This document shows, piece by piece, positions 8,780 to 32,193 of a DNA stretch of 64,000 bases. Source of the stretch: an uncultured Alphaproteobacteria bacterium (lineage in GTDB: Bacteria > Pseudomonadota > Alphaproteobacteria > JAJTHO01 > G963706365). Within the stretch, counting starts at the first letter, position 1, and each line of letters begins with the position of its first letter. Location of the stretch: contig OY970150.1 in the NCBI GenBank assembly GCA_963706365.1, positions 1,005,864 through 1,069,863 of the forward strand, given 5' to 3'. The notes under the pieces were generated by a model. The model saw nothing but the letters and a program-made list of their open reading frames with translations. It was not told where the DNA came from and ran no database searches. Both the position numbers and the translations under genes were made by a program.

Positions 8780-8894
8780 CAGGATTATAGAAAACCCATT
8801 GACCAAGCCATTATAATCCATCATAAAGATGCCGTTACTTTTACCCCTGCGGGAGAATCGTTTACGATACCGAAGGCGCAACCGCCCTGGAAAC

Positions 8895-9012
8895 GCTCAG
8901 GTCACCGGACTGTAGGGTAATGTAGCCTCTGGAAAGTGGTTTACCACGCCGAAGAAGTCAATCTTTCAGGCCGTTTAATAGCGAAAGACAGAGAGGGCAT
9001 AAACGATTAGGA
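8895..9012 (+). promoter_or_regulatory. Candidate glycine riboswitch (gcvT leader)
   Basis: Leader of the gcvT operon contains CTCTGGAAAG...CACGCCGAAGAAGTCAA...CTTTCAGGCC...GACAGAGAGG, resembling the conserved glycine aptamer elements (CUCUGGAGAG / CGCCGAAGGAGCAA / CUCAGGCAAAAGGACAG). Not folded computationally. Confidence 0.45.
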
Positions 9013-16852: not shown

Positions 16853-19800
16853 ATGCAAAAAATATCTTCACCGGCGGCCGGACAACAAAAGCAGGTTTAT
16901 GCAGAACCCGGCCAAACCATTGAACTTGATATAGATATTAGCCAAGCCCAGGTTGACATTCTGGGCAGTGATATGATTTTGACCTTACCAAATGGTGGGC
17001 AAATTATTTTATCTGGCATGGCGGTTTCCCTGTTTGAACAAGATGCACCGAACTTAATTGTAGAGGGGCAAACTATTGATCCTAATATTTTATTAGGCCG
17101 CGTTGGATTGGTGCAAAATGTATCGGGTAAAGATGTCGCAATTTTAACCAGCATGCAAACCCCTGCAACAGAAAAAGCCGCGCAGGAAGTTTTGCAACAA
17201 AAATTGCAAAACATCGAAGTAAAGTTACAGGAAGCAGAACAGGCAGCAGAAATTGCGCAGAAGGAAGCCGATTTTAACGAACAATTTAAATTTATGGAGC
17301 CGCCAAAGGAAATTGTTGGCGAAAATATGGTCAGTGCTTCAAAAGGTACCAATGCACCGAGCAATAAAACGCTAGGGAATTTTGAACTGGGCGCGAAAAA
17401 AGTTTTTCAAAAATTTACCAGCAATGCAGAATCAGAAGAATCAATCCAGCAAGCCGCCCCGCCGGTTGATTTTAAACCCCCTGCGGTGCAATCTGAATTA
17501 ATTGTAGAACAAAGTGATGGCGGAACAATTGCTTTTGATACAAAGGTACAAGCGTTGCAAATATCAGCTAGCCAATCCCTTGCGGATAACGGCACCCTAA
17601 CCTTTTTGGGGGGAAGCGGTAGCGAGGCCGCAACCATTGATGGCAGTGCCTTAACACAAATTCAGGCAGAATTTATTGATACCAGCCGCCATAATCGTGA
17701 TGTTGTAATCGTGGCTGATAACAACACTTTTATTGATCAAAATTTGCTATCTAGAGTCATTGAATACGACCCCACTGTGCCAGATGGTTTTGATTTAACG
17801 TCACTGGTTATTAAAGGTATTCCCAACAACTATAATCTTGTGGGTTATACAGCCGATTCCAGCGGTAACTATCGCTTTGATGTCAACACATTATCAGGGG
17901 ATGTAGAAAAATTTATCATTCAATACGACCCCACCGCTTTTGGTAGTGCTGATGCCAATGGTAATGTGCAAACTTTTAATATTACCTTTGATTCTATTGC
18001 GCAAAGTAACGGCAGCGTTGTAGAAGCCGCCTACCCTAGTTTAACGGATTCAATCGTTGTTCCTGTGGCGGTGAAAGATGTTACGGAAAACAATTATACC
18101 TATAACGTTAATGGCGTTACAGGTTGGGTTTTTGATACAAACCCGAATGGCAATATTATTTTAACAGGCGACGGTAATGCAGATGTTACCGGCGGTTTTA
18201 CCAATGACCGTATTACGACTGGTTCCGGTAATGATATAATCAATGCCGGCAAGGGTGATGACTTTGTACGTACCAACAAAGGTGATGATATTATAAACGT
18301 TGGCACCGGTAATAATATTGTGGATGCTGGCGATGGTATTGATACGTTGACCTACAGCGACAGTAACAGCAATGTTAACGTTGACTTGATGAGCCCTGCA
18401 AACAGCGCCGGTTACATTGAATTAACTGTTGGCAGCAACCAAACTGACCAGGTGCGGGAAGTTGAAAATATTACCACTGGCGGTGGTAATGATACAGTAG
18501 CGGGTAATAATAGTAACAACACCTTAAAAACAGGTGCCGGGAATGACACCTTAACAGGCTATCTGGGGAATGATACTTTAGACGGCGGCGCGGGCAGTGA
18601 CACAGTTTCCTATGCCTATCGCGAGACCTATTCCAGCAGCGGTGTTACCGTTAACTTAAACAACAGCACCGTTAATCTTGCCAGTAATGATGTTGATACC
18701 ATTAGCAATATCGAAAACATTATCGGTACACGTTATAATGATACCCTAACAGGTAATTCGCAAAACAACACTTTTACAGCAGGCGCCGGTAATGACACCA
18801 TCGATTTAGGCACGGGTAATGACAGTGTTGATGGTGGCGATGGTATTGATCATCTAAAATTTACACAGCAAACCAGTGGTGTTACTTTAAACTTGCAACA
18901 GGGATCTGGTCAATCAGCCACTGGCGACACATTGACGGTACGTAACATAGAAGAAGTAACTGGCTCAAGTTTCAATGACACTTTAACAGGTGATAATCTA
19001 AACAATACTTTTTACAGCAGTGCTGGCAACGATGCTTATAATGGCAGTGGTGGCACCGATACTTTAAGCTATCAAACAGGCACAGCCGCCATCCAAGCTG
19101 ATTTTTCTGCCGGTACCGTTACAAAAAATAATGGTAATGATACCTTTTCAAATATTGAAACTGTCAAAGCAACCAATTTAAATGATACGCTTATTGGTGG
19201 TGGATCAGTTACTAATATTGATGGTGCTGGCGGCATAGACACTTTGTCTTATCAAACCCAAACAGATGCTGTTACAATTAATTTAAAAGATGGCACCACC
19301 ACGGGTGCTGTTACTCAATCTTTTAGCAACATAGAAAACGCCACGGGCGGTTCTGGCAATGATACTTTGCTAGGAAACAGTGGGAATAATATTCTGGCGG
19401 GTGGCGCTGGTATTGATACGGTTAGTTATGCCAATGCAACAAATGCGGTAAATGCCAGCTTACTGAGCAACAGTTCAACAGGATATGGTAATGATACATT
19501 TTCAAGTATGGAAATATTAATTGGCTCAAACTTTAGTGACCAATTAGAAGGAAATGCCGGCAATGACGAAGTCATTGGTGGCGGCGGTAACGATACTATT
19601 TTCTCTACCACCGGTAATGATATTATTGATGGTGGAACGGGTTACAACACCATATCCTATGTCAATTCTACCGATACGATTACCAGTATTGATTATACAA
19701 CGGTTGCAAGCACAGGCTATGTAACCATTAACTTTGTTTCTGGAAAATATGACCTGGTGCGTAATGTTGAACTTTATAAAGGTTCAGCCGGTAACGACGA

Positions 19801-22800
19801 AGTTGTTGGCGGCGGTGGCAGTGGTGCGGGTTTAGGAACAAATCCGGGATCTGGCGGCGGGTCAGGAGGTGGCAGTGGCGGAGGCGTTGTAACCATTGAT
19901 GGAGGAGATGGTACGGATAAAATAATTTTTGCTGCTGAAACCGCTGTTGTTGTTGTTGATTTACAAAACGGTACAGCCACAGGTTCCTTTGGTACTTATA
20001 ACTTTACTAGTTTTGAAAGTGTTGTCGGTGGTGTGAATAATGACACCCTAATTGGTAGTACAGCGGACAATATTATTGAAGCTAATGACGGAGACGATAC
20101 TGTAATTGGCACCACAGGTAATGATACCTTGGATGGAGGCAATGGCAATGATATCGTGGACTATAGTAATTTAACCAGCGGTATAACAGCTTCTTCTACC
20201 AGTGTTACGGGTAGTGGCTTTACCGATACTTTAAGTAATTTCGAAACCGTTATTACCACAGATTATGACGATGTTATTAACGATGATAGCGCCAGTACTG
20301 TTTATGAAACAGGCGATGGCAATGATACTATTAATGCCAATTCCGGCACCGACAGCTTTGATGGTGGAACCGGCACGAATAAGCTAAGTTACACAAGCCA
20401 TAGTAACAGTAGTGCAGGCATTAACGCAGATATGTCTGTGCGCGACGGTAACAGCTTTTTCAACATCACTATAGGTGGCGAAACAGACAAAGCAAAAAAT
20501 ATCCAGATTCTTGAAGGTAGCACAGGCAACGATATTTTAACCGGCGATAATAACGCCAATACCTTGCTGGGTGCCGGTGGTGATGACATTCTAAATGGTG
20601 GTGGCGGTAATGATACGCTGGATGGTGGCGATGGTAATGATACTGTAAGTTTTTCCGGTGCCTCTAGTGGCGTTAACCTTAACATGAACATTGTTGACGC
20701 TAATGGTTTTGCCAATGCAACAGTGGGCAGCGAAACAGATAAATTAAAAAGTATCGAAATTATTAATGGCTCCAGTTTTGATGATATTATCACCGGTGGC
20801 AGCAGTAATGATACAATATCAGGGGGTTCTGGTAATGATATTCTGGATGGCGGTGCAGGCCTAGATACAATTAACGGCGGTGGTGGCTATGATACAGCAA
20901 CGTATGTATCCCTATCACAAGGTGTTAGTGTTGCTGGCAGTGTGGTTACCGATAATGACGGTAATGTGGAAACATTAATTAATATTAATGCCATCAGGGG
21001 AACGAACGCTGGCGATACATTTATTGGCACCAGTGGTAACGATATTTATGGTGGCCTAGGTGGCAACGATACTTTCACCGCAACCAATGGTAATGATAGC
21101 TATGATGGTGGCGCCGATACAGATACTGTTACTTATGTTAACAGCAGCGAAAACCTGAACATTAGTTTACGTACAGGTTCTGCAACCGGCACACTATTGG
21201 GAACACATACCTTAACAAGCATTGAAAATGTTACGGGTGGTTCTGGTAATGATACAATAGAGGGCGGTGTTGGCGCCAATATTTTAAATGGTGGTGCGGG
21301 CAGCAATACATTGAGTTACGCCAATGCCATTGCTGGTGTTAGTATTGATTTAACAGCCAATACAGCCATTGATGATGGCGGTGCCACAGATACCATCAGT
21401 AATTTTACCAGTTTAAATGCTTCTGGCTTTAATGACACCTTAAAAGGCAGCACCGGTAGTGATACCCTAAATGCCGGCGCCGGTAATGATACGATAATTT
21501 CTAGCACAGGTAACGACACCATTGACGGTGAAGCCGGTAACGATAGCCTGTCTTATGCAGCCACATCAACGGCTATTAATGTTAACTTATCTAGCGTAAA
21601 CGGCAGTGGTTTTGCCACTATTACGCAGAATACCAAAACAGATTTGGTGAAAAACATTCAAACATTTACCGGTTCCACCGCGGGTGACACTTTTATAGGT
21701 TCCAGCACCGCTGATATTTTCTATGGTGGTAGTGGTGCTGATACCTTCAGTGGCCGGGGTGGTAATGATATATTTGAAGGGGGCAATGATACAGATACGG
21801 CTGATTACGCTTATTCTGCTAATGCCATTACGGTTGATCTAACCAATCTGGTTGGTGGCTATGGGCAAGTTAGCTTTGCTTCCAGCAGCGAGGTGGACAG
21901 CCTTAATAGTATAGAAAATATTATCGGTACTGCCGGTAATGATACGTTTACCGGTGGCGCTGGTGCTAATAACATTAATGGTGGTGGCGGTAACGATACT
22001 TTTTATGGCGATGCTGGCAACGATTCCCTTGATGGGAACACTGGTAGTGATACTGTTGACTTTAGTGCCAATAGCACAGCTGTAAATGTTACATTAAACA
22101 GCCAGTCTGCCACCGCACAAACCATTACTTCTGGTTATGGCACCGACAGTATTCGCTATATTGAAAATATTACCACAGGCGGCGGTAATGATACCATTGA
22201 TACGCGCAATGATGCCGGTAATAACACCATTGTTACTAATGGTGGCAATGATACCATTTATGCCGGTGCGGGCAGCGATAGCTTAGATGCCGGTAGTGGC
22301 ACGAACACTTTACGTTTTGACGGTATGGCCAGCGCTGTGGTTCTGGATTTATCCACTTTGAATGGCAGTGGTTTTGCCACTGCAACTTCTGGCGCAAATA
22401 GCAGCCTGGTAAAAGGTTTTGGCACCGTTTACGGCAGTTCCAATGGCGATAATATTACCGGCACAAGTGGCAATGATATACTTTATGGCCAGGATGGTTC
22501 CGACACGCTTACAGGTGGCGCAGGCGATGATCTGATTATTGACCGCAATACAACCTATGCCACCAATAACACCAACATTATTAACGCCGGTGACGGTAAT
22601 GATACGGTAGAGGCCTACGTTAATGGCAGCACCATAGACGGTGGCAATCAAACCGATATTTTAACCTATAATGCTGGTAGTGGCACAAGCTCTAACCTAA
22701 CAGTGAACCTTACAGCAGAAACAGTTACAAATGGTGTTTATACCGACAATATCTCTAATTTTGAAGAAATTCGAACCAGCAATGGTAATGACAGTTTCAT

Positions 22801-23647
22801 TGGTGATGCCAATGGTCAATCATTCTATGGGAATGCCGGTAACGATACATTCCGGGGCTTAGGAGGAAATGACTTCTTCTATGGCGGTAATGATACAGAT
22901 ACCGTTAGCTATATAGACGCAGGCAGCGGTGTTACAGCTAATTTAACAACCAATACTGCCAGCGATGGTGATGGCGGAACCGATACATTTAACAGCATAG
23001 AATCATTAACGGGTTCTAACTATGATGATTTGTTAACGGGCAATGTGGGGGGCAACACGTTGTCTGGCGGAACCGGTAATGATACCCTTGTAGGCACCGC
23101 CGGGAATGATACCCTGAATGGTGGAACAGGCACCGATGATACAATAGATTATACTGCCCAAACCAGTGCGGTTAATATAGATCTAGCCACCAACAACGCC
23201 AGTGGTGCAGGCATTGATACCGATACCTTCTTGAATATTGATCGTATTAATACAGGTTCTGGCAACGATAGTTTAACAGGTGACGCGGCAACATTATTCG
23301 CCAGCACCCTAAAATTAAACTTTGCCACAGGAAACGACACTGTTACAGCCACCAGTGGTACTGTTGGTACAGATGCGGGGGTTCTTGATACGTTATACGA
23401 CAACGTGGAAACCCTAAACTTTCTTGGCGCCAATACCAACAGCGGCAACTTTGTTATTGATGGCGACGAAGTTGTTGGCCTAACAGATTCTAACAATGCC
23501 TTGCGGTTAGATGTAAACAGCTTATTCGGTTTAACCGTTAATGGCGGTAGTTATACCGTTTCATCGTCTACGACAGGCAACCATACTGTTTATGAATTTA
23601 ATACCGGTGTAACACAAGTGGCACAGTTGGACGTCTATGTTACCTAG
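16853..23647 (+). CDS. Giant RTX-repeat (hemolysin-type Ca-binding nonapeptide) secreted protein/adhesin, T1SS substrate
   Basis: About 2265 aa. No signal peptide. Dozens of GGxGNDTLxG-type nonapeptide repeats throughout, and an acidic C-terminus ending ...AQLDVYVT. The ATG at 16853 is preferred over the TTG at 16844 used by the ORF track. Immediately followed by T1SS export genes. Confidence 0.85.
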   Translation: MQKISSPAAGQQKQVYAEPGQTIELDIDISQAQVDILGSDMILTLPNGGQIILSGMAVSLFEQDAPNLIVEGQTIDPNILLGRVGLVQNVSGKDVAILTSMQTPATEKAAQEVLQQKLQNIEVKLQEAEQAAEIAQKEADFNEQFKFMEPPKEIVGENMVSASKGTNAPSNKTLGNFELGAKKVFQKFTSNAESEESIQQAAPPVDFKPPAVQSELIVEQSDGGTIAFDTKVQALQISASQSLADNGTLTFLGGSGSEAATIDGSALTQIQAEFIDTSRHNRDVVIVADNNTFIDQNLLSRVIEYDPTVPDGFDLTSLVIKGIPNNYNLVGYTADSSGNYRFDVNTLSGDVEKFIIQYDPTAFGSADANGNVQTFNITFDSIAQSNGSVVEAAYPSLTDSIVVPVAVKDVTENNYTYNVNGVTGWVFDTNPNGNIILTGDGNADVTGGFTNDRITTGSGNDIINAGKGDDFVRTNKGDDIINVGTGNNIVDAGDGIDTLTYSDSNSNVNVDLMSPANSAGYIELTVGSNQTDQVREVENITTGGGNDTVAGNNSNNTLKTGAGNDTLTGYLGNDTLDGGAGSDTVSYAYRETYSSSGVTVNLNNSTVNLASNDVDTISNIENIIGTRYNDTLTGNSQNNTFTAGAGNDTIDLGTGNDSVDGGDGIDHLKFTQQTSGVTLNLQQGSGQSATGDTLTVRNIEEVTGSSFNDTLTGDNLNNTFYSSAGNDAYNGSGGTDTLSYQTGTAAIQADFSAGTVTKNNGNDTFSNIETVKATNLNDTLIGGGSVTNIDGAGGIDTLSYQTQTDAVTINLKDGTTTGAVTQSFSNIENATGGSGNDTLLGNSGNNILAGGAGIDTVSYANATNAVNASLLSNSSTGYGNDTFSSMEILIGSNFSDQLEGNAGNDEVIGGGGNDTIFSTTGNDIIDGGTGYNTISYVNSTDTITSIDYTTVASTGYVTINFVSGKYDLVRNVELYKGSAGNDEVVGGGGSGAGLGTNPGSGGGSGGGSGGGVVTIDGGDGTDKIIFAAETAVVVVDLQNGTATGSFGTYNFTSFESVVGGVNNDTLIGSTADNIIEANDGDDTVIGTTGNDTLDGGNGNDIVDYSNLTSGITASSTSVTGSGFTDTLSNFETVITTDYDDVINDDSASTVYETGDGNDTINANSGTDSFDGGTGTNKLSYTSHSNSSAGINADMSVRDGNSFFNITIGGETDKAKNIQILEGSTGNDILTGDNNANTLLGAGGDDILNGGGGNDTLDGGDGNDTVSFSGASSGVNLNMNIVDANGFANATVGSETDKLKSIEIINGSSFDDIITGGSSNDTISGGSGNDILDGGAGLDTINGGGGYDTATYVSLSQGVSVAGSVVTDNDGNVETLININAIRGTNAGDTFIGTSGNDIYGGLGGNDTFTATNGNDSYDGGADTDTVTYVNSSENLNISLRTGSATGTLLGTHTLTSIENVTGGSGNDTIEGGVGANILNGGAGSNTLSYANAIAGVSIDLTANTAIDDGGATDTISNFTSLNASGFNDTLKGSTGSDTLNAGAGNDTIISSTGNDTIDGEAGNDSLSYAATSTAINVNLSSVNGSGFATITQNTKTDLVKNIQTFTGSTAGDTFIGSSTADIFYGGSGADTFSGRGGNDIFEGGNDTDTADYAYSANAITVDLTNLVGGYGQVSFASSSEVDSLNSIENIIGTAGNDTFTGGAGANNINGGGGNDTFYGDAGNDSLDGNTGSDTVDFSANSTAVNVTLNSQSATAQTITSGYGTDSIRYIENITTGGGNDTIDTRNDAGNNTIVTNGGNDTIYAGAGSDSLDAGSGTNTLRFDGMASAVVLDLSTLNGSGFATATSGANSSLVKGFGTVYGSSNGDNITGTSGNDILYGQDGSDTLTGGAGDDLIIDRNTTYATNNTNIINAGDGNDTVEAYVNGSTIDGGNQTDILTYNAGSGTSSNLTVNLTAETVTNGVYTDNISNFEEIRTSNGNDSFIGDANGQSFYGNAGNDTFRGLGGNDFFYGGNDTDTVSYIDAGSGVTANLTTNTASDGDGGTDTFNSIESLTGSNYDDLLTGNVGGNTLSGGTGNDTLVGTAGNDTLNGGTGTDDTIDYTAQTSAVNIDLATNNASGAGIDTDTFLNIDRINTGSGNDSLTGDAATLFASTLKLNFATGNDTVTATSGTVGTDAGVLDTLYDNVETLNFLGANTNSGNFVIDGDEVVGLTDSNNALRLDVNSLFGLTVNGGSYTVSSSTTGNHTVYEFNTGVTQVAQLDVYVT

Positions 23648-23719
23648 GCATATCCTGATAGCGACAGGTTTATAAAAATTTAATCTTATCGCACCATACT
23701 GCACCTTAGAGAGCGTAAA

Positions 23720-25096
23720 ATGGTGCAAAACAACTATAATAACAAGCAACGCACGTTACAAACTGGTCAAATTGGCTGGTATGTGCCGCATAAAATGTGG
23801 GTCACACTGGTGGCCTTTTTCAGTTTATCTTTTGTTATGCGTGAGGATCTGATTGAAAGATTTCAATCGCATGTCAGTTTGAACGGCCTTATTTTAACCA
23901 CCATGATGGTTGTTGTGGTTATGGCTTTTAACAACATCTTCCATGTGCAACGCGCCGCCAACCTTTTAAAACGTATAGAAAACTTTGAAGATAATCCTGC
24001 TGCACAGGTGCAGGGGAAACTGGTTAAGGAATTACGTGGTAGTTATATTGATAACTATTATTTCCAGCAGCGCTTATCCAATTATGAAATTGGTAAAGAT
24101 GAATTTGTAAAGTTTGATGACAAGCAGGCAATGCTAATTAAATCGAAAGTTGGTTTTCGGTCTAATAACATGCGTAACACGGTGCAATACCTAGCAGGTG
24201 TTTTGGTTATGCTGGGCTTGATTGGTACGTTCTGGGGTTTGCTTGAAACCATTACAGCCGTTGGTCAAGCTATGGGAAGCTTAACGGGTGATTTGAATGA
24301 AGAAGGCAGCATGGAATCTTTCCTTGCAGCCATTAGTAAACCTTTGCAAGGTATGGGGGTTGCCTTTAGTGCCTCACTATTCGGGCTGTCCGGCTCTTTA
24401 TTAGGTGGTCTGCTAAACAGTTTTTGCGGTAAGGGAATGAACGACTTTATCGAACATTTTGGTATCTGGATAGATACCCGCATTCCGCAAGTACAACAAA
24501 AACCAAAAGCAGAATTAAACCCGGCAGAATTAATTGAACAACACAATAAAACCGTGGTGGCCGCCCTGGAAGATGTTCTAACCGGCCTACGCAAACAGTC
24601 ACAAACCATGTTTGTACAGTTAACAGAAGTTATGACGGAATTTTCCAGATTTTCGCAGCAGCAACAAACCGCCCTATCGGTGATTAGTAATGAAAGCAAA
24701 GTAAATGTGCGCTTGGCTGATAGCATGGAACAAGCCGTATTTGGCCTGAAACAAGAAGCACAATTAATACGAGAAAGAGTCGTTTCGCTGCCAGAAATTC
24801 ACCAATCTTTAGGCAATGATGTGCGCCATGTCGCCAATATTATTGCCGATTCGCAAGACAGTATTAGCCAGCATATTGTTAACAGCAGTGTAGATAGCAA
24901 TAAAACCCGCACCACCTTAAATAGCTTGCTGGAATCCTATGCCGCCATGGTTTCCTTAATGGAAAGACTCATTCAGCAAGACAAACTGGAAAAGCAAGCA
25001 CCAGAAACCACCAGCCAGATTATTATGGAAATGCAACAGGTGTTAAAACAACAGCTGGATGCGGCCAATCAACCGATTTCTTTAAAGGTGGGTTAA
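23720..25096 (+). CDS. MotA/TolQ/ExbB-family proton-channel protein with a ~200-aa coiled-coil cytoplasmic tail (SiiB-like)
   Basis: 458 aa. Four predicted TM helices; TM3/TM4 carry the family signature (LAGVLVMLGLIGTFWGLLETI...GVAFSASLFGLSGSLLGGL). A long Q/E/K-rich C-terminal tail. The stop overlaps the next gene start (TAAAATG). Confidence 0.65.
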   Translation: MVQNNYNNKQRTLQTGQIGWYVPHKMWVTLVAFFSLSFVMREDLIERFQSHVSLNGLILTTMMVVVVMAFNNIFHVQRAANLLKRIENFEDNPAAQVQGKLVKELRGSYIDNYYFQQRLSNYEIGKDEFVKFDDKQAMLIKSKVGFRSNNMRNTVQYLAGVLVMLGLIGTFWGLLETITAVGQAMGSLTGDLNEEGSMESFLAAISKPLQGMGVAFSASLFGLSGSLLGGLLNSFCGKGMNDFIEHFGIWIDTRIPQVQQKPKAELNPAELIEQHNKTVVAALEDVLTGLRKQSQTMFVQLTEVMTEFSRFSQQQQTALSVISNESKVNVRLADSMEQAVFGLKQEAQLIRERVVSLPEIHQSLGNDVRHVANIIADSQDSISQHIVNSSVDSNKTRTTLNSLLESYAAMVSLMERLIQQDKLEKQAPETTSQIIMEMQQVLKQQLDAANQPISLKVG

Positions 25097-25097
25097 A

Positions 25098-25676
25098 ATG
25101 TCAGACGATCCCGAAAGCACGATCCCCTGGCCTGGTTTTGTGGATATTCTTTCCACCGTTATCATCGTGTTCGTTTTCTTTATGATGATGACGTCAACCA
25201 TCATTTTCTTGATGGCGCAAAAACAGCAAGAAAAAGCTGTTTCAGATGCTAAGCAAGAGGTTATTGAAGACATAAACAATGTTGATATCAAACAGGTATT
25301 ACTGGAAAATAGTCAGCTTAAAAAACAAGTTGAAGATATGGTTCGGGTAAAATCTATTTTAGGGGAGTCAGAATCACAAATTGTTTCAAAGCAAGAAAAC
25401 GGCGTTAAAATTACTTTTAATGATTTTGGCGTAACGTTATTGCCCGAAACAACAGAATCTATAAAATCTTATTTAAGCAATGTAAGAAAAGTACAGTTAC
25501 AAGCTTATGTGCCGCAAAATTATGCAGCCACCCGGGAAATCGCCCTGAACCGTGCTTTGAACGTGCGAAATTTACTAATTCAGGCAGGTTTAAAACCAGA
25601 AAATGTGGAACTGAAAATTTTGACAGACACCACCGGAAACGAGGGAGCATATGGCCATATTCTCCTTTCATATTAG
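25098..25676 (+). CDS. MotB/TolR-like single-pass membrane protein with C-terminal OmpA-like region (SiiA-like)
   Basis: 192 aa. N-terminal TM (PGFVDILSTVIIVFVFFMMMTSTIIF). The C-terminus (REIALNRALNVRNLLIQAGLKPENV) resembles the end of OmpA/MotB peptidoglycan-binding domains. Overlaps the TolC start by 26 nt. Confidence 0.5.
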   Translation: MSDDPESTIPWPGFVDILSTVIIVFVFFMMMTSTIIFLMAQKQQEKAVSDAKQEVIEDINNVDIKQVLLENSQLKKQVEDMVRVKSILGESESQIVSKQENGVKITFNDFGVTLLPETTESIKSYLSNVRKVQLQAYVPQNYAATREIALNRALNVRNLLIQAGLKPENVELKILTDTTGNEGAYGHILLSY

Positions 25677-27027
25677 AACCGCTTTCTTATCACTGGCTAT
25701 TGCTCAAAATGCCCAGGCGCTTTCCTTACACGAAGTGATAGAGCGTGCTATTATTAACAGCCCAGAGCGCAGCATTGCCGCCGCGCAAATTGCCCAGGCC
25801 GAAGCCACCGTAGCAGAAGAGAAATCAGGTTATAAGCCACAAGTTAATGCCAAAGCCGATATTGGCCGCGAATATAATGATCGTTTTGCCCTAAGGCAGG
25901 GTGCCGTTGAAGCCAGTGGTTACAACACTGGTAAAAGCGCCAGTTTAAACATTAGGCAAATGCTGTTTGATGGTTACACAACCAAACAAACCGTTGCCAG
26001 ACGTTTAGCACAGGTAAAAGCCTCAACTTTCAACCAGAATAAAATTACAGAAGAACTGATTAACAGCACGATTGAAATTTATATGCAGCTGTATCAGTTT
26101 CAGCGAACCGTTATTGCCGCAAAAGAAAATTTAGTAACCCTAAAAACCATTGCTGATATTGTTAATACCCGTTTTGAAGAAGGGGACACAACAGAAGCTG
26201 AAAAAAACTATATAAAATCACGCGTTGCCAATGCACAGCAAGAATTAATTAATGCTGAAGCAGCTTTGGCGGATTCTAAAAGCGCTCTGGTTTTTCTGAT
26301 TGGCGATGTAGAACCTTTCGATGCCGCATTGCCTATTCTAAGTAATTTGGCAACTTTTCTACGCAATACCGATAACGATATATTCGTTAAACAGGCCTTT
26401 AATAATAACAGCGAGCTAAAAGTAAATACAGCTGAGTTAAAAGCCGCAAGATATGACATGGATAGCTCAAAAGGCGCTTACTACCCTAATCTGGATTTTG
26501 TTGTAAATGGTAGCCGTGCTGACGACCAAGGTGGTGACACCGGCAAAGCTGAAAGCGCCAGTGCCAAACTGGAGTTAACCTATACGTTATTTGATGGTGG
26601 ATTACGCGCCGCAACCCTGGACAGAAAGCTAGCCAAAATTAAAGAGGTACGATCACGGCAAGTACAATTGCGCCGCGAAATCAAACAACAAGTAGAACAA
26701 ACCATGAACCAGCTGCAAAGCAGCAGCCAGGAAATTCTATCAGTTATGGAAGAAGGCGAAGCCAACAAACGGCTGGAAGAGGTTTATATCGAACAATTTC
26801 AGTATGGCGATGGTGATGTGGATATCATTAACTTAGTAGAGGCGAGAGAACGGATTTTTTCTGCCAAGGTAAAAAAGTTTCGATTGGCATCTGAAGTAGT
26901 GAATGCCCATTACACGGCCAATCGTTTGACAGGCTTGCTATTGCCAGAATTCTGCACTTTGTCTTGTGATAGTACTGCAAGACCCCTAACGCCTGTGGAT
27001 ACAGAGAAAAATAGCGATGGAACATAA
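25651..27027 (+). CDS. TolC-family outer-membrane efflux/secretion channel
   Basis: 458 aa with signal peptide (AFLSLAIAQNAQA) and a two-repeat OEP architecture rich in alpha-helical/coiled-coil segments. Overlaps the downstream ABC gene by 11 nt. Confidence 0.8.
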   Translation: MAIFSFHIRTAFLSLAIAQNAQALSLHEVIERAIINSPERSIAAAQIAQAEATVAEEKSGYKPQVNAKADIGREYNDRFALRQGAVEASGYNTGKSASLNIRQMLFDGYTTKQTVARRLAQVKASTFNQNKITEELINSTIEIYMQLYQFQRTVIAAKENLVTLKTIADIVNTRFEEGDTTEAEKNYIKSRVANAQQELINAEAALADSKSALVFLIGDVEPFDAALPILSNLATFLRNTDNDIFVKQAFNNNSELKVNTAELKAARYDMDSSKGAYYPNLDFVVNGSRADDQGGDTGKAESASAKLELTYTLFDGGLRAATLDRKLAKIKEVRSRQVQLRREIKQQVEQTMNQLQSSSQEILSVMEEGEANKRLEEVYIEQFQYGDGDVDIINLVEARERIFSAKVKKFRLASEVVNAHYTANRLTGLLLPEFCTLSCDSTARPLTPVDTEKNSDGT

Positions 27028-28663
27028 AGATGCTTTTTTCTTAAAGGAGGCGCTGCAGATTCCTAGAACATTGTTGCGCGATATTCTTATAACCAGCCTG
27101 TTTCTAAATTTGCTAGCTGTTGCCCTGCCGTTATTTACCCGCGTAGTTTACGACAAAGTTATTCCCAATTTTGCCATCGAAACCCTGTGGGTATTGTTTT
27201 CCGGCATGGCCATGGTCTTGGTATTTGACAGCCTATTTAAGGCTAGCCGTAATTATATCATTCAGCATATTTCCAGCAAAACCCTGCAAGAATTAGAACA
27301 GCCGTTTATGACGCACCTGTTAAAAATACCAGCGCAACATAATCTGGCCAAAACAAATTACCATTTAAACAGCTTGCAAGAAATTTGCCGCTATCGGTTT
27401 CAATTACTAATTCCGGCAACTGTTGATATTCCTTTTGTACTGGTCTTTTTGCTAATCATTTATCTTATCTGCCCACCCATGGCGTTGGTGCCTTTGGGGG
27501 TTGGCCTTTCATTAATTGCCCTGCAAATAGCGTTTCATCATAAATTAAACAAGGCACTGGTTCATAGCCAGGAAGCCACAGAAGAACGATTGCAAACGGT
27601 TGCTGATCTTCTGCAAGGTCGTCAAACCATTCGGCAACTAGCCCACTATACGCCTTTTATCAATGATTGGAAAACAGCCAGCAGCAGAGCCGCAATTAAC
27701 AACAGCAGAATGACTTTTCTATACCAAATGGTGATGAGCCTTTCACAAAGTTGCTTGCTGTTTAACACGGTGTTGTTAATGATGGTCGGTGTTTATCAGG
27801 TGCAGGCCTCAACATTAAGTATTGGTGGGTTGCTGGCCATCAGCTTGCTAAGTGCCCGTATTTTAACGCCACTAATGTCGATTGGTGAATTATTAGCCAA
27901 ACGTCCAAAAATTCTTATGGAATTAAAACACATCAATCAGGTGATGCAAATTCCTGACGAAGGCACTGGGGCAGCTATTGCCTTTGCACCAAAACTTACC
28001 CTAACAAATGCAACCGTTGATCCTATTTTAAAAAATTGTAACTTTAGTTTACAAGCAAAAGAAAAATTGGCAATTGTAGGCAGCAGTGGTGCAGGCAAAA
28101 CCACATTATTACAAATATTATCCAAAGAGCGCACCCTTTCTTCCGGCAGTGTTTTATGGGATGATCGCAAGGACATTGCACCCGCCCATTTACGCCAACA
28201 AATGGGTATTGTTGAACAACACCCTTATTTTTTTGGACGTAGTGTGCGCGATAATTTATGCCTTGAACATCAATATGCCGATGCGGAACTTTTTAAAACA
28301 CTCGATTTGGTTGGCTTAACCACTTTTATAAAAGCCACCGGGCATGGGCTGGATTTAATGCTGGATAACGGCGGGCATAACCTTTCTGGCGGCCAGCGGC
28401 AATGCCTGGCATTGGCACGTGCCCTATTAAGACAACCTGATATTTTGTTGATGGACGAACCCACCAGCATGATGGATCATCAAATGGAACTGCAACTGGT
28501 ACAAAATTTGCGTTTTGCTTTAAAAAATAAAACAGTTGTCCTTGTTACCCACCGCACGCCGCTGCTCTCCCTAGTAGATAAAATTCTGGTTTTGGAAAAC
28601 GGGCAAGTACAGCAATTTGGCGATAAAAACACCATCCTAAATCAGCAGGCCAAGCATGGATAA
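27017..28663 (+). CDS. Type I secretion ABC transporter (HlyB-like permease/ATPase, no C39 peptidase domain)
   Basis: 548 aa. N-terminal 6-TM domain plus NBD with Walker A GSSGAGKTT, signature LSGGQRQCLALARAL, and Walker B ILLMDEPTS. Confidence 0.85.
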   Translation: MEHKDAFFLKEALQIPRTLLRDILITSLFLNLLAVALPLFTRVVYDKVIPNFAIETLWVLFSGMAMVLVFDSLFKASRNYIIQHISSKTLQELEQPFMTHLLKIPAQHNLAKTNYHLNSLQEICRYRFQLLIPATVDIPFVLVFLLIIYLICPPMALVPLGVGLSLIALQIAFHHKLNKALVHSQEATEERLQTVADLLQGRQTIRQLAHYTPFINDWKTASSRAAINNSRMTFLYQMVMSLSQSCLLFNTVLLMMVGVYQVQASTLSIGGLLAISLLSARILTPLMSIGELLAKRPKILMELKHINQVMQIPDEGTGAAIAFAPKLTLTNATVDPILKNCNFSLQAKEKLAIVGSSGAGKTTLLQILSKERTLSSGSVLWDDRKDIAPAHLRQQMGIVEQHPYFFGRSVRDNLCLEHQYADAELFKTLDLVGLTTFIKATGHGLDLMLDNGGHNLSGGQRQCLALARALLRQPDILLMDEPTSMMDHQMELQLVQNLRFALKNKTVVLVTHRTPLLSLVDKILVLENGQVQQFGDKNTILNQQAKHG

Positions 28664-29877
28664 ATTCTGGTTAAAAGCTAATTACCTGGCAGGTTTTGTT
28701 GTCATTTTACTTATTGCATGGGCAGCATGGGCAGAAGTACATACCGCGGTGCACGGCACTGGCCGTACTGTTTCAGCCGGTGAGAACAAGCAAATTCAAC
28801 ACCTGGAAGGTGGTATTATTGCCGATATTCTAGTGCAAGAAGGCCAGAAAGTCAGCACTGGCCAACCACTGTTTCGTATTCGTAATGAAAATAATACAGC
28901 GACATTAGAAGAAAATAAATTAAAGCTTCAAAGTTTGGAAAACCGACGCATTCCGCCTGCTAGCCGAGGCAGAAAACAAAAAGCCAGAATTTCCGATAGA
29001 AGCCGCCACCGAGCAATTATTATACGATAGCCGCAAACAACAACAAGCCCAAGAACTTCGTATCTTAACCCAGCAAATTCAGCAAAAAAGAAGTATTCTA
29101 TCAGAACAAACCACTCGCATTCGTAATTTACAACAAGAACTTTCTACGGCCACCAGCCAGCTCAATATTGTTAAACGCCTAGTTGAAAAAGGTGCTGCTT
29201 CGCAAAATAGAATGTTAGATATGCAAGCGCGTGTTAATAGCCTCAATACAGACATAAGCGGCACAAGACGCCGCATTCCCACTACTCAAGCAGAATTAAG
29301 TGAGGCACAAGGGCGCTTAAATGCGGCGAAAGCAGAGCAAAAAAATGCTATTTTAGAGGAATTGCGCCAGACCAAACTGGAAATTACCCAACTGCAAGAA
29401 CGCTTGAAAGCCAACAATGACGTTGTCTTACGTACCGAATTATTGTCGCCCGTAGACGGTATTCTGCAACGCCTGCACGTTCACACGATTGGTGGCACCG
29501 TTCGCCCCGGCGAACTATTAGCAGAAATTACCCCTAGTAATGATAACCTGATAATTGAGGCTCGCATTGACCCGAAAGACCGTGCGCATGTGTGGTATGG
29601 CCAAAAAGCCAATATTACTGTCACTGCCTTTAACTATATGAAATATGGCACACTACAGGCCAAAGTGCTGGAAATTAGTGCGGATAGTATTGAAGATAAT
29701 TCCAATCAACCGCCCTATTACCGCGTCAAACTGATTCTTGATACCGCCGACAGTCAATACACTATACTTCCCGGCATGGTTACAGAGGTGCACTTACTTG
29801 CTGAAAAAAGGACAGTTCTGCAATATTTACTAGACCCTGTATTGCGAACAAAACGTAATGCGTTTCGCTCTTTGTAA
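28656..29877 (+). CDS. HlyD-family T1SS periplasmic adaptor, reading frame broken once (~28950)
   Basis: ORFs 28656..29030 and 29212..29877 are joined by a -1 frame segment (RIRLLAEAENKKPEFPIEAATEQLLYDSRKQQQAQELRILTQQIQ...) after attCCgcctgc. N-terminal TM plus coiled-coil and the C-terminal HlyD beta-domain are all present. Confidence 0.8.
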
Positions 29878-31550: not shown

Positions 31551-32193
31551 CTAAGCCGCACCTTCTGTCGCCTGCTTGTTTTGTATCACACCAATACGTT
31601 GTTGCAATTCTTGTAATTGATGCTCAATTTGCGAAAGTTCCTCTTCTGGCGAGATGCTTTTATATTCGGTTGCCTGGTTGCCTGATGACAAGGATTTAAA
31701 CGGCGTAAACATGTTTTGAAACATGCTCATATTATTGCGTGTCATCGCCTTAATGGTGTTACTAACATTATTATTCAGGCCAAAACTTTGCCCCGATGCA
31801 AGGCCAGTTCCCAAAGCCAATGGCTTTAAGATATTCGCGCATGCGATCCTGATTTTCAATAAAAGCGGCCATGCTTGCATCCAAGTATTTTGAAACCACG
31901 GTTTGCGTGCTGTCGCCATATAAACTGATAATGCGGCGCAAAAAATTCACCGGCAGCATGGGTTCAATGTCTTGCCCCAAATTGCTTTCTTGTTCAAAAA
32001 TAATTTGAATCAGAATACTGTGCGTAAGGTCTTTACCAGACTTCGCATCCTTTACAACGAACTCGACGTTTTTTCGCACCATTTCACGCAAGTCTTCCTG
32101 CGTAATATATTGGCTGGTTGCAGTGTTATATAAACGGCGGTTGGCATATTTTTTAATTGTCAACGGCATATCTGCTGAATGGGGCATGGCCAT
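31551..32193 (-). CDS. phaR: Polyhydroxyalkanoate synthesis repressor PhaR, reading frame broken once (~31800)
   Basis: N-terminal ORF (31771..32193) starts LTIKKYANRRLYNTATSQYITQEDL (PhaR DNA-binding signature). The C-terminal part (MSMFQNMFTPFKSL...) is in the overlapping ORF 31551..31919. The shift is near ggcTTTGGGaac. Confidence 0.75.

What the first reader, a model, noticed from the sequence alone, without database searches (positions are those of the whole stretch)
16853..29877. SPI-4-like locus: giant RTX adhesin plus T1SS with an embedded MotA/MotB-like (SiiB/SiiA-like) proton-channel pair
Six genes sit in one orientation. The last five overlap each other by 1-26 nt (translational coupling). 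The order is a 2267-aa RTX-repeat protein, a 458-aa MotA/ExbB-family protein with a long coiled-coil tail, a 192-aa MotB-like protein, a TolC-family channel, an ABC exporter, and a HlyD adaptor. The only described system I know with this exact component set is Salmonella SPI-4 (siiABCDEF), where the MotAB-like SiiA/SiiB channel powers SiiE adhesin function; SiiB (~460 aa) and SiiA (~210 aa) match the sizes here. Finding this architecture in what appears to be a host-associated alphaproteobacterium is not something I know to be described. It also argues against the Zorya (ZorAB) or flagellar-stator interpretations of the MotAB pair.
Basis: partly seen in the sequence, partly recalled or inferred. 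Interest (0 to 1): 0.75.

Follow-up and report, generated by a model that had tools for sequence, protein, structure and literature searches.

The report
Secretion system with built-in proton motor
This locus encodes a type I secretion system for a giant calcium-binding repeat protein plus a flagellar-stator-like proton-channel pair; that combination was described only in Salmonella SPI-4, but it defines a separate, unannotated family in environmental bacteria.

Summary
The gene set is real: RTX protein (16853-23647), MotA-like (23720-25096), MotB-like (25098-25676), TolC, ABC exporter and HlyD adaptor, all on the + strand.

Corrections to the observation:
- hlyD is split in this window by one extra T at 28951. 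It is intact in a 99.93%-identical independent assembly.
- The ABC exporter lacks the N-terminal C39-like domain.
- Nothing shows that the RTX protein is an adhesin.

I recovered genuine SPI-4 loci and compared them.
- Family profiles match SiiB and SiiA at hhalign 97-97.6%. E. coli MotAB, TolQR and ExbBD score about 0 bits against the same profiles.
- The modelled periplasmic domain superposes best on the SiiA crystal structure.
- The channel Asp and an R-x4-R pair are invariant in the family.

The MotA-like, MotB-like and TolC genes lie next to a giant RTX protein in 13 of 13 distinct loci (Alpha- and Gammaproteobacteria, one Bdellovibrio-like).

It is nevertheless a separate family:
- About 32% identity to SiiB over 79 residues.
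- Opposite order of the two channel genes.
- An RTX substrate instead of a BIg one.
- The A subunit is closest to a stator-like pair of Alphaproteobacteria that has no secretion genes nearby.

Zorya and flagellar readings are rejected. Verdict: a new variant of a known kind. The mechanism is inferred.

The parts
16853..23647 (+). Giant secreted substrate, 2264 aa. It has an N-terminal domain of about 100 aa that is conserved across the family, then a charged helical stretch, then about 1700 aa of repeated RTX beta-roll blocks, then a non-RTX C-terminus of about 150 aa (presumed T1SS signal).
   Evidence: Pfam HemolysinCabind, 27 stretches, E 8.7e-108, with no other domain. Sequence and 30 GGxGxD-type motifs. 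The N-terminal domain is conserved in 8 other giants beside the same triad.
23720..25096 (+). A subunit: MotA/ExbB/TolQ/ZorA-fold membrane protein, 458 aa, with a helical cytoplasmic tail of about 200 aa (SiiB-like).
   Evidence: PADLOC ZorA3 3.8e-14. Pfam MotA_ExbB only 15.7 bits, below the cutoff of 22.9. AF2 model pLDDT 75. Foldseek hits to ZorA, TolQ, ExbB and PomA. hhalign to SiiB 97.5%. Invariant TM residues include T170, T177, P208, S217 and S219.
25098..25676 (+). B subunit: single-TM MotB-like protein, 192 aa, with invariant Asp16 in the motif WPGFVD, a helical linker and a minimal OmpA-like peptidoglycan-binding domain (SiiA-like).
   Evidence: Invariant P12-G13-F14-V15-D16, R152 and R157. 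AF2 model pLDDT 84.7. Foldseek best superposition on SiiA-PD 6qvp, TM 0.73-0.80, rmsd 2.3-3.1. hhalign to SiiA 97%. Best solved sequence relative is C. jejuni MotB, 5e-5.
25651..27027 (+). TolC-family outer-membrane channel, 458 aa. Its start overlaps the B-subunit gene by 26 nt. It is always the gene directly after the B subunit in related loci.
   Evidence: Pfam OEP 5.3e-38; TIGR01844 9.1e-50. Synteny.
27017..28663 (+). T1SS ABC permease/ATPase, 548 aa, LssB/LapB subfamily, lacking the N-terminal C39-like domain.
   Evidence: TIGR03375 1.7e-134, aligned from profile position 137. Residue 22 aligns to residue 171 of a 721-aa relative. Walker A, signature and Walker B motifs are present in the sequence.
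28656..29877 (+). HlyD-family periplasmic adaptor. It is interrupted in this window by a +1 frameshift, giving ORFs 28656-29030 and 29212-29877.
   Evidence: TIGR01843 matches both pieces: profile 10-97, then 197-420. Frame break. Intact 406-aa gene in assembly L001.
28951..28951 (.). Single extra T relative to the independent assembly. It is either an assembly indel error or a strain-specific inactivating mutation.
   Evidence: Alignment of the window with L001. The only other indel, at 31825, also breaks an ORF in the window only.

Best explanation
The locus is a type I secretion system (TolC channel, ABC exporter, HlyD adaptor) for a 2264-aa RTX-repeat protein. It carries a dedicated accessory unit of the MotAB/ExbBD/TolQR/ZorAB kind.

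Proposed assembly and action (inferred):
- The 458-aa A subunit and the 192-aa B subunit assemble into an inner-membrane ion channel, presumably 5:2.
- Protons pass via the invariant Asp16 of B.
- B anchors the unit to peptidoglycan through a minimal OmpA-like domain with an R152/R157 pair.
- The helical tail of A, about 200 aa, reaches into the cytoplasm.

By analogy with Salmonella SiiAB, its nearest characterised relative, the unit uses the proton-motive force to act on the secretion machine or its substrate rather than to drive export itself. Most likely it controls whether the giant protein stays held at the cell surface in the TolC channel, through its conserved N-terminal domain, or is released.

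What is shown: the parts, their folds, the conserved residues, homology to SiiAB, and conserved linkage to T1SS genes. What is inferred: stoichiometry, proton conduction, the target of the force, and the role of the substrate.
For: - Component identities.
- Stator-type fold of A, matching ZorA, TolQ, ExbB and PomA.
- B has an invariant WPGFVD Asp and an invariant R-x4-R pair with the same spacing as the functional R162/R167 of SiiA; bioRxiv 10.1101/641415.
- The B periplasmic domain superposes best on SiiA-PD.
- Specific profile homology to SiiB and SiiA, with negative controls.
- The A-B-TolC triad lies next to a giant RTX protein in 13 of 13 distinct loci. A-subunit identity to the window falls to about 30% (about 27% for the B subunits). 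The loci span Alpha- and Gammaproteobacteria and a contig labelled Pseudobdellovibrionaceae.
- A conserved N-terminal domain is present on all the substrates.
- No LapG/LapD-type release system appears in any of the gene lists.
- In Salmonella, SiiAB conducts protons, SiiB binds the ABC exporter SiiF, and the pair is needed for adhesion and invasion but not for SiiE secretion.
Against: - No experiment exists for this family.
- Pfam MotA_ExbB and OmpA scores are below their curated cutoffs.
- The A subunit is not closer to SiiB than to a non-T1SS family of Alphaproteobacteria. The T1SS association could therefore have arisen twice, and the function could differ from SiiAB.
- The substrate has no recognisable adhesion domain.
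- Its N-terminal resemblance to SiiE is not significant: hhalign 6.8%.
- hlyD is frameshifted in this window, so the system may be inactive in this strain.
- The ABC exporter here lacks the C39-like domain that SiiF and the deeper relatives have.
Confidence: 0.7

Rival explanations
1. The stator-like unit is a power booster. It feeds proton-motive force into the translocation step itself, which is needed to push or pull extremely long substrates (2,000-16,000 aa) through the ABC-HlyD-TolC conduit. On this view it is required for secretion, unlike SiiAB.
For: - All neighbouring substrates are giant, 1,670 to 16,067 aa.
- The A subunit has a long cytoplasmic tail that could reach the ABC exporter or the substrate.
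- The closest subclade has lost the substrate-chaperoning C39-like domain of the ABC exporter. This could indicate a changed loading mechanism.
Against: - In the only studied relative, SiiE secretion into the supernatant is unaffected by deleting siiA and siiB (PMC12607715).
- Many T1SS export giant adhesins without such a unit, for example EHEC OI-28.
Confidence: 0.2
2. The pair is a general envelope-maintenance or unknown housekeeping stator, like the related MotA-like/PRK09039 pair of Alphaproteobacteria. On this view it merely sits beside the T1SS genes without working with them.
For: - The closest sequence relatives of the A subunit, at 114-159 bits, are non-T1SS pairs that share the same WPGFVD motif.
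- NCBIfam PRK09039 is the best named hit for the B subunit.
Against: - 13 of 13 loci keep A-B-TolC together and beside a giant RTX gene, across low sequence identity and several phyla or classes, often with overlapping reading frames.
- The B subunit is short with a minimal OmpA-like domain, like SiiA and unlike PRK09039 proteins.
Confidence: 0.06
3. The pair is a Zorya-type (ZorAB) anti-phage sensor, or a spare flagellar stator.
For: - PADLOC ZorA profiles are the best library hits for the A subunit, at 50 bits.
- ZorA structures top the Foldseek list.
- C. jejuni MotB is the best solved sequence relative of the B subunit.
Against: - The ZorA matches are partial, and SiiB and the non-T1SS family match ZorA profiles too.
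- ZorB hits are marginal, E 0.004-0.011.
- No ZorC/D/E/F/G-like or flagellar genes are among the neighbours, which are housekeeping genes.
- E. coli MotA and MotB score about 0 bits against the family profiles.
- T1SS synteny is conserved.
Confidence: 0.02

Closest known systems
Salmonella SPI-4 T1SS accessory pair SiiA/SiiB (siiABCDEF)
   Same: - A MotB-like protein of about 200 aa and a MotA-like protein of about 460 aa, encoded directly next to the TolC-family gene of a T1SS for a giant Ca2+-binding protein.
- The N-terminal motif PWP(G/S)FVD with the channel Asp (D16 here, D13 in SiiA).
- An R-x4-R pair in a minimal OmpA-like domain (R152/R157 here, R162/R167 in SiiA).
- Profile homology of 97-97.6%.
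- The best structural superposition is on SiiA-PD.
   Different: - Sequence identity is low: 32% over 79 aa for A, and only the TM segment aligns for B by BLASTP.
- Gene order is A-B-TolC-ABC-HlyD with the substrate first. SPI-4 has B-A-TolC-HlyD-substrate-ABC.
- The substrate is built of RTX beta-roll blocks, not BIg repeats.
- The ABC exporter lacks the C39-like domain that SiiF has.
- The SiiB family was found only in Enterobacterales. This family occurs in environmental Alpha- and Gammaproteobacteria and one Bdellovibrio-like contig.
MotA-like/PRK09039 'peptidoglycan-binding protein' pairs of Alphaproteobacteria (function unknown)
   Same: - They are the closest sequence relatives of the A subunit, at 114-159 bits.
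- The B subunit shares the WPGFVD motif.
   Different: - No T1SS genes or giant RTX gene are adjacent.
- The A subunit is shorter, 320-440 aa.
- The B subunit is much longer, 340-500 aa, with a long coiled coil and a canonical OmpA domain (Pfam 5.4e-16).
Zorya ZorAB
   Same: - Stator fold with a long helical C-terminal tail on the A subunit.
- ZorA profiles and structures are the best library hits.
   Different: - No Zor effector genes are present.
- The tail is far shorter: a median of 223 aa after the last TM helix, against ZorA profiles of about 680-1060 positions.
- The conserved context is a T1SS.
Lap/Lss-type two-step T1SS for giant adhesins (LapBCE-LapA, Legionella LssBD-RtxA)
   Same: - The ABC exporter belongs to the LssB subfamily (TIGR03375, 449.7 bits).
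- The substrate is giant and has a conserved N-terminal domain.
   Different: - The score is below the family cutoff of 693, because the C39-like domain is missing.
- No LapG protease or LapD receptor is present in any locus.
- No conserved di-alanine site is present.
- The extra MotAB-like pair is not part of Lap or Lss systems as described.

Membership tests
Type I secretion system | ABC permease/ATPase of the T1SS subfamilies | tested here: met
   TIGR03375 1.7e-134, TIGR01846 2.1e-77, TIGR01842 2.7e-68. ATPase motifs are present.
Type I secretion system | HlyD-family membrane-fusion adaptor | tested here: inconclusive
   TIGR01843 matches both halves, but the gene is frameshifted in this window. 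It is intact in a 99.93%-identical assembly.
Type I secretion system | TolC-family outer-membrane factor | tested here: met
   Pfam OEP 5.3e-38; TIGR01844 9.1e-50.
Type I secretion system | Substrate with RTX Ca2+-binding repeats and a C-terminal signal | tested here: met
   27 HemolysinCabind stretches. The non-RTX C-terminus is seen in the sequence. The signal itself cannot be verified by sequence.
MotA/ExbB/TolQ-MotB/ExbD/TolR ion-driven 5:2 motors (superfamily) | A subunit with the family's transmembrane fold | tested here: met
   Foldseek probability 1.0 to ZorA, TolQ, ExbB and PomA. However, Pfam MotA_ExbB scores 15.7 bits, below the cutoff of 22.9.
MotA/ExbB/TolQ-MotB/ExbD/TolR ion-driven 5:2 motors (superfamily) | B subunit with a single TM helix carrying a conserved Asp | tested here: met
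   Asp16 is invariant in 49 sequences.
MotA/ExbB/TolQ-MotB/ExbD/TolR ion-driven 5:2 motors (superfamily) | 5:2 stoichiometry and ion conduction | not testable with these tools
   No multimer prediction or experiment was available.
SiiAB (SPI-4) family | Significant, specific sequence relationship to SiiA and SiiB | tested here: met
   hhalign 97-97.6% and HMM 45-52 bits, with E. coli stator controls at about 0 bits. However, the word-limited SiiB search does not reach this family, and the A subunit is equidistant from the non-T1SS family of Alphaproteobacteria.
SiiAB (SPI-4) family | Short B subunit with a minimal OmpA-like domain and the Arg pair used for peptidoglycan binding | tested here: met
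   Foldseek to 6qvp gives TM 0.73-0.80. R152/R157 are invariant and spaced as R162/R167 in SiiA.
SiiAB (SPI-4) family | Encoded beside the TolC-like gene of a T1SS for a giant protein | tested here: met
   13 of 13 loci. SPI-4 and Yersinia loci are the same.
SiiAB (SPI-4) family | BIg-repeat adhesin substrate and SPI-4 gene order | tested here: not met
   The substrate is RTX only, whereas SiiE carries Big_13. The order of the A and B genes is inverted.
SiiAB (SPI-4) family | Needed for adhesin function but not for secretion | not testable with these tools
   This requires genetics in a carrier organism.
Zorya defence system | ZorAB accompanied by ZorC/ZorD, ZorE or ZorF/ZorG | tested here: not met
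   The neighbours are GTPase, FBPase, LeuA, PhaR-like and MscS genes plus the T1SS genes. ZorB hits are only E 0.004-0.011.
Flagellar stator MotAB/PomAB | Sequence membership and flagellar gene context | tested here: not met
   E. coli MotA and MotB score -1.2 and 0.2 bits against the family HMMs, and hhalign gives 2.7% and 0.3%. No flagellar genes appear in the locus gene lists.
Lap-type two-step adhesin T1SS | ABC exporter with a C39-like domain, plus LapG protease and LapD receptor | tested here: not met
   The C39-like domain is absent. No LapG or LapD families appear in any locus gene list.

The most novel reading that the evidence does not exclude
This is a previously unrecognised, widespread class of type I secretion system. 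A proton-driven rotary 5:2 motor is mechanically coupled, through TolC, the adaptor or the ABC exporter, to a conserved N-terminal handle on giant RTX proteins. The motor powers or gates their surface retention, release or export. On this reading, Salmonella SiiAB is one derived enterobacterial offshoot of the same invention.
Probability: 0.35. Interest if true: 0.85.

Novelty: new variant of a known kind. Interest (0 to 1): 0.62.

Why it matters
What SiiAB does with the proton-motive force has been unclear since its description in 2014. It has been treated as a Salmonella peculiarity.

A second, much broader and very divergent family has the same linkage: a stator-like pair next to TolC and a giant secreted protein. 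It shares the same critical residues. This shows that the pairing is a recurring design, not an oddity.

The family gives comparative leverage:
- Invariant residues, including a conserved WxDxRIP motif after the last TM helix.
- Variable tail lengths on the A subunit.
- A conserved N-terminal domain on the substrate.
- Natural variants with and without the C39-like domain of the ABC exporter.

These can be used to work out what the motor touches. The family also adds a member to the growing list of non-flagellar 5:2-type machines (Ton, Tol, gliding/T9SS, Zorya).

Tried and rejected
- **AlphaFold-database fold search.** The library was unavailable, so SiiB could not be reached by structure.
- **PDB sequence searches.** Searches with the single proteins and with profiles did not find SiiA-PD. 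They were dominated by coiled-coil noise.
- **Structure prediction of B from locus-derived sequences.** I redid it with database hits.
- **GTDB genome scan.** It did not find the window's own genome, so the organism stays unidentified.
- **Plasmid collection.** No match.
- **NCBIfam at E up to 10.** No SiiB-type or other informative model for the A subunit.
- **Legionella lssXYZABD as a possible known equivalent.** The literature at hand gives no MotAB-like role for LssX, LssY, LssZ or LssA.
- **EHEC OI-28 RTX system.** It has no such pair.
- **Homology of the substrate N-terminus to the SiiE N-terminus.** BLASTP gives 34.7 bits, but hhalign probability is 6.8%, so I left it as inconclusive. 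There is no PDB relative.
- **LapG-type di-alanine site.** The PAAG near the N-terminus is not conserved in homologues.
- **Tandem DNA repeats in the RTX gene.** None.
- **Promoter and terminator scan.** Nothing above the shuffled expectation.
- **Horizontally acquired island.** GC content is flat at 0.42-0.44 and the flanks are housekeeping genes. No support.
Full report
**What is in the sequence**

The window carries six co-oriented reading frames on the + strand between 16853 and 29877.

- The first encodes a 2264-aa protein from ATG 16853 (2267 aa if read from TTG 16844). Its only recognisable feature is 27 stretches of the RTX nonapeptide repeat (Pfam HemolysinCabind, E 8.7e-108).
- Read directly, this protein has a non-RTX N-terminal region of about 440 aa. 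About 1700 aa of RTX blocks separated by 40-80-aa spacers follow. The last 150 aa or so are non-RTX, which is where a type I signal normally lies.
- There are no tandem DNA repeats in the gene.
- After a 72-nt gap come a 458-aa protein (23720-25096) and, after a 1-nt spacer, a 192-aa protein (25098-25676).
- Next is a TolC-family channel (25651-27027; OEP 5.3e-38, TIGR01844 9.1e-50).
- Then comes an ABC permease/ATPase (27017-28663; TIGR03375 LssB type, 1.7e-134).
- Last is a HlyD-family adaptor (28656-29877; TIGR01843).
- The last four junctions are a 1-nt spacer and overlaps of 26, 11 and 8 nt.

**Corrections to the observation**

The adaptor gene is not open in this window. The frame starting at 28656 stops at 29030, and the C-terminal two thirds continue in another frame from 29212.

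An independent assembly of essentially the same organism (locus L001, 99.93% identical over 20.6 kb) has an intact 406-aa gene. The window differs by one extra T at 28951. The only other indel between the two assemblies is an extra T at 31825. It likewise splits a PhaR-like gene in the window only. So these are either assembly errors or real inactivations, and the tools cannot decide which.

The ABC exporter aligns to the LssB profile only from position 137. Its residue 22 aligns to residue 171 of a 721-aa relative. It therefore lacks the N-terminal C39-like domain.

Nothing in the RTX protein identifies it as an adhesin.

**The two small proteins are a stator-type pair**

The A subunit (458 aa):
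- It misses the Pfam MotA_ExbB threshold (15.7 against 22.9 bits).
- It matches ZorA profiles of PADLOC (3.8e-14).
- An AlphaFold2 model built from 36 homologues (mean pLDDT 75; over 90 across most of residues 21-170 and 221-250) gives Foldseek probability 1.0 to ZorA, TolQ, ExbB and PomA.
- It has hydrophobic helices at about 25-45, 50-76, 154-181 and 214-232, followed by about 200 aa of long helices.
- Invariant positions cluster in the last two TM helices: G166, G169, T170, T177, P208, S217, S219 and G222. A further motif, W250-x-D252-x-R-I-P, lies just after them.

The B subunit (192 aa):
- It has an N-terminal motif W11-P-G-F-V-D16 that is invariant or nearly so in 49 sequences.
- One TM helix, a helical linker and a C-terminal alpha/beta domain follow.
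- The best solved sequence relative is C. jejuni MotB (5e-5).
- By structure, the C-terminal domain matches OmpA-like peptidoglycan-binding domains.

**Linkage to the secretion genes is conserved**

I looked up the genomic context of homologues, with A-subunit identity to the window falling to about 30% and B-subunit identity to about 27%. In every distinct locus the A gene is followed by the B gene and then directly by a TolC-family gene, and a giant RTX-repeat gene lies alongside.

- The loci are L002, L005, L009, L085-L090 and L126-L128, plus the window itself, making 13 of 13.
- The giant genes encode 1,670 to 16,067 aa.
- The ABC and HlyD genes are in the same operon or in a neighbouring one wherever the contig extends far enough.
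- Submitters labelled the carriers as Alphaproteobacteria, Granulosicoccus, Pseudomonadales and Pseudobdellovibrionaceae, from environmental metagenomes.
- None of the proteins has a name or a Pfam family on record.
- An exhaustive HMMER scan of 1.84 billion cluster representatives finds 83 at E <= 1e-30. Most of these are 440-740 aa, that is, long-tailed like this protein. A drop then leads to shorter proteins of 300-400 aa.
- Within this window/L002/L085 subclade the ABC exporter lacks the C39-like domain. Deeper relatives keep it, at 688-726 aa.

**Direct comparison with SPI-4**

No library tool held SiiA or SiiB. I therefore scanned metagenome contigs with a degenerate pattern for a remembered SiiA N-terminal peptide. 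This returned four loci (L095, L105, L110, L121) encoding a SiiA-like protein of 210 or 215 aa that begins MEDE(S/G)NPWPSFVD.

- The L105 copy has D13, R162 and R167 and is 210 aa long. This matches exactly what is published for S. Typhimurium SiiA (bioRxiv 10.1101/641415).
- In L110 it is followed by a 462-aa protein, a TolC-like gene, a HlyD-like gene and a giant protein with Big_13 domains.
- The 462-aa protein is 81-95% identical to Salmonella enterica proteins.

Against these references:
- BLASTP gives 46.6 bits (32% over 79 aa across the last two TM helices) for A against SiiB.
- BLASTP gives 38.9 bits (55% over the 22-aa PWPxFVD-TM segment) for B against SiiA.
- Profile comparisons give hhalign 97.5% (E 6.6e-12, 192 columns) for A and 97.0% (E 1e-10, 124 columns) for B.

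As controls I used the same family profiles on the E. coli proteins:
- TolQ, ExbB and MotA score 1.1, 0.3 and -1.2 bits, with hhalign 25%, 35% and 2.7%.
- TolR, ExbD and MotB score about 0 bits, with hhalign below 1%.

The modelled periplasmic domain of B superposes on the SiiA crystal structure 6qvp with target-normalised TM-score 0.73-0.80 and rmsd 2.3-3.1 A. This is better than on any MotB, OmpA, Pal or YfiB entry (TM 0.35-0.66). The invariant R152 and R157 have the same spacing as SiiA R162/R167, which the SiiA study implicates in peptidoglycan binding.

**Limits of the SPI-4 analogy**

- The A subunit scores no better against SiiB (47 bits) than SiiB scores against a different group (51 bits). 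That group is a large family of MotA-like proteins of 320-440 aa in Alphaproteobacteria.
- These are paired with long MotB-like proteins of 340-500 aa, of the NCBIfam PRK09039 type. They carry the same WPGFVD motif but have no T1SS genes nearby.
- That family is much closer to the present A subunit, at 114-159 bits.
- For the B subunit the picture reverses. SiiA scores 48-52 bits against this family's profile, above the median of 35 bits for the B subunits of the Alphaproteobacteria pairs. SiiA scores only 23-27 bits against the profile of those B subunits.
- All three groups, including SiiB, also touch ZorA profiles.
- So there is a clade of 'WPxFVD' stator-like pairs within which two branches are T1SS-linked. 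Whether those two share a T1SS-linked ancestor is unresolved.
- The SiiB branch was found only in Enterobacterales: Salmonella, Yersinia, Hamiltonella, Fukatsuia, Dryocola and Chimaeribacter.
- In Yersinia mollaretii it keeps the SPI-4 layout with a BIg giant.
- Gene order differs. It is B-A-TolC-HlyD-substrate-ABC in SPI-4 and substrate-A-B-TolC-ABC-HlyD here.
- The substrate chemistry also differs, BIg against RTX blocks.

**The substrate**

All giant proteins next to the triad share an N-terminal domain of about 100 aa. Its core motif is VDILGxDI-T...G..I...G....LF...AP.....G....P..LL..VG.V.N....D.....TS. An acidic or helical stretch follows.

SiiE begins with a superficially similar segment (BLASTP 34.7 bits). 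The profile comparison is not significant, at hhalign 6.8%, so I treat this only as a lead. No LapG/LapD-type release system appears in any locus, and the PAAG near the N-terminus is not conserved.

**How it most likely works**

Shown:
- A complete T1SS gene set, with the caveat on hlyD.
- A stator-fold A subunit.
- A B subunit with the channel Asp and a SiiA-like peptidoglycan-binding domain.
- Strict genetic coupling to TolC and a giant RTX protein.

From the published behaviour of SiiAB:
- SiiAB conducts protons in a manner that depends on D13.
- SiiA binds peptidoglycan through R162.
- SiiB contacts the ABC exporter.
- The pair is needed for SiiE-dependent adhesion and invasion, but not for release of SiiE into the medium.

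Inferred: the A-B unit here is a proton-driven accessory of the secretion machine. It is anchored to the wall by B, with the tail of A reaching cytoplasmic partners. It acts on retention or presentation of the giant protein, probably via the conserved N-terminal domain lodged in the TolC conduit.

I put about 0.7 on 'dedicated PMF-using T1SS accessory that works like SiiAB'. I put roughly 0.4 on the specific retention and release role. The main alternative is that the motor assists export of very long substrates (0.2).

Zorya and flagellar readings are contradicted by gene context and by the controls. A merely neighbouring housekeeping stator is contradicted by the 13 of 13 synteny.

**Novelty**

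Full-text searches for SiiA/SiiB, MotAB-like T1SS components, and stator-unit and Zorya reviews were carried out. They included a 2025 phylogenetic survey of MotAB homologues. None described such a pair in a T1SS outside SPI-4.

The kind of system, a T1SS with a SiiAB-type accessory, is known. This is a distinct, unannotated and taxonomically much broader family, with a different substrate class and layout. I therefore rate it a new variant of a known kind, of moderate-to-high interest.

Noticed in passing
window 31551-32193 (- strand), indel at 31825: A PhaR-like (PHB_acc) gene is split into 122-aa and 140-aa ORFs by one extra T. The near-identical assembly L001 has a single 213-aa gene. Both indels between the two assemblies are T insertions that break genes in the window only.
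   Followed up: partly
L006-L084 (e.g. L016:10025-12318): A large family of MotA-like (320-440 aa) plus long MotB-like (340-500 aa, PRK09039) pairs, mostly from Alphaproteobacteria. They share the WPGFVD motif but have no T1SS genes nearby. About 25 of 78 loci have an ABC exporter of about 600 aa located 1-6 kb downstream, usually on the opposite strand. Their function is unknown.
   Followed up: partly
window 16853-17170; L002:16702-17000; L085, L086, L087, L088, L090, L005, L009 giant-gene 5' ends: A conserved N-terminal domain of about 100 aa is shared by all giant RTX proteins encoded beside the A-B-TolC triad. It has no Pfam or PDB relative and only a non-significant resemblance to the SiiE N-terminus.
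   Followed up: partly
window 27017-28663 vs L087:742-2907, L005:854-3034, L009:3000-5174: The C39-like N-terminal domain of the ABC exporter is absent in the window/L002/L085 subclade (548-565 aa). It is present in deeper relatives (688-726 aa). This is a natural loss within one system family.
   Followed up: partly
L127:1-4556: In a marine metagenome-assembled genome (GCA_001370015.1), the gene beside the triad is called as a 16,067-aa protein, among the largest bacterial ORFs.
   Followed up: no
proteins P0266, P0272: SiiB-family proteins occur in the aphid symbionts Candidatus Hamiltonella defensa and Candidatus Fukatsuia symbiotica (on a plasmid), and in Yersinia mollaretii and Y. enterocolitica. 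SPI-4-type systems are therefore not confined to Salmonella.
   Followed up: partly
proteins P0156, P0158, P0163, P0166, P0168: Some B-subunit homologues carry a precomputed Pfam hit, PF28175. This model is not in the local Pfam copy, so a recent Pfam release may already hold a model covering part of this family.
   Followed up: no
window 8840-8922 (+): Glycine riboswitch aptamer (Rfam RF00504, 55.3 bits).
   Followed up: no
window 12058-13818 (+): A 586-aa secretin-family gene (Pfam Secretin on the L001 gene call) lies about 3 kb upstream of the T1SS locus. A DEAD-box helicase, a GTPase and a GlpX FBPase gene lie between them.
   Followed up: no
window 44001-46000: The lowest GC in the window (0.372, against about 0.43 elsewhere), overlapping a 655-aa ORF on the - strand (44779-46746).
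   Followed up: no
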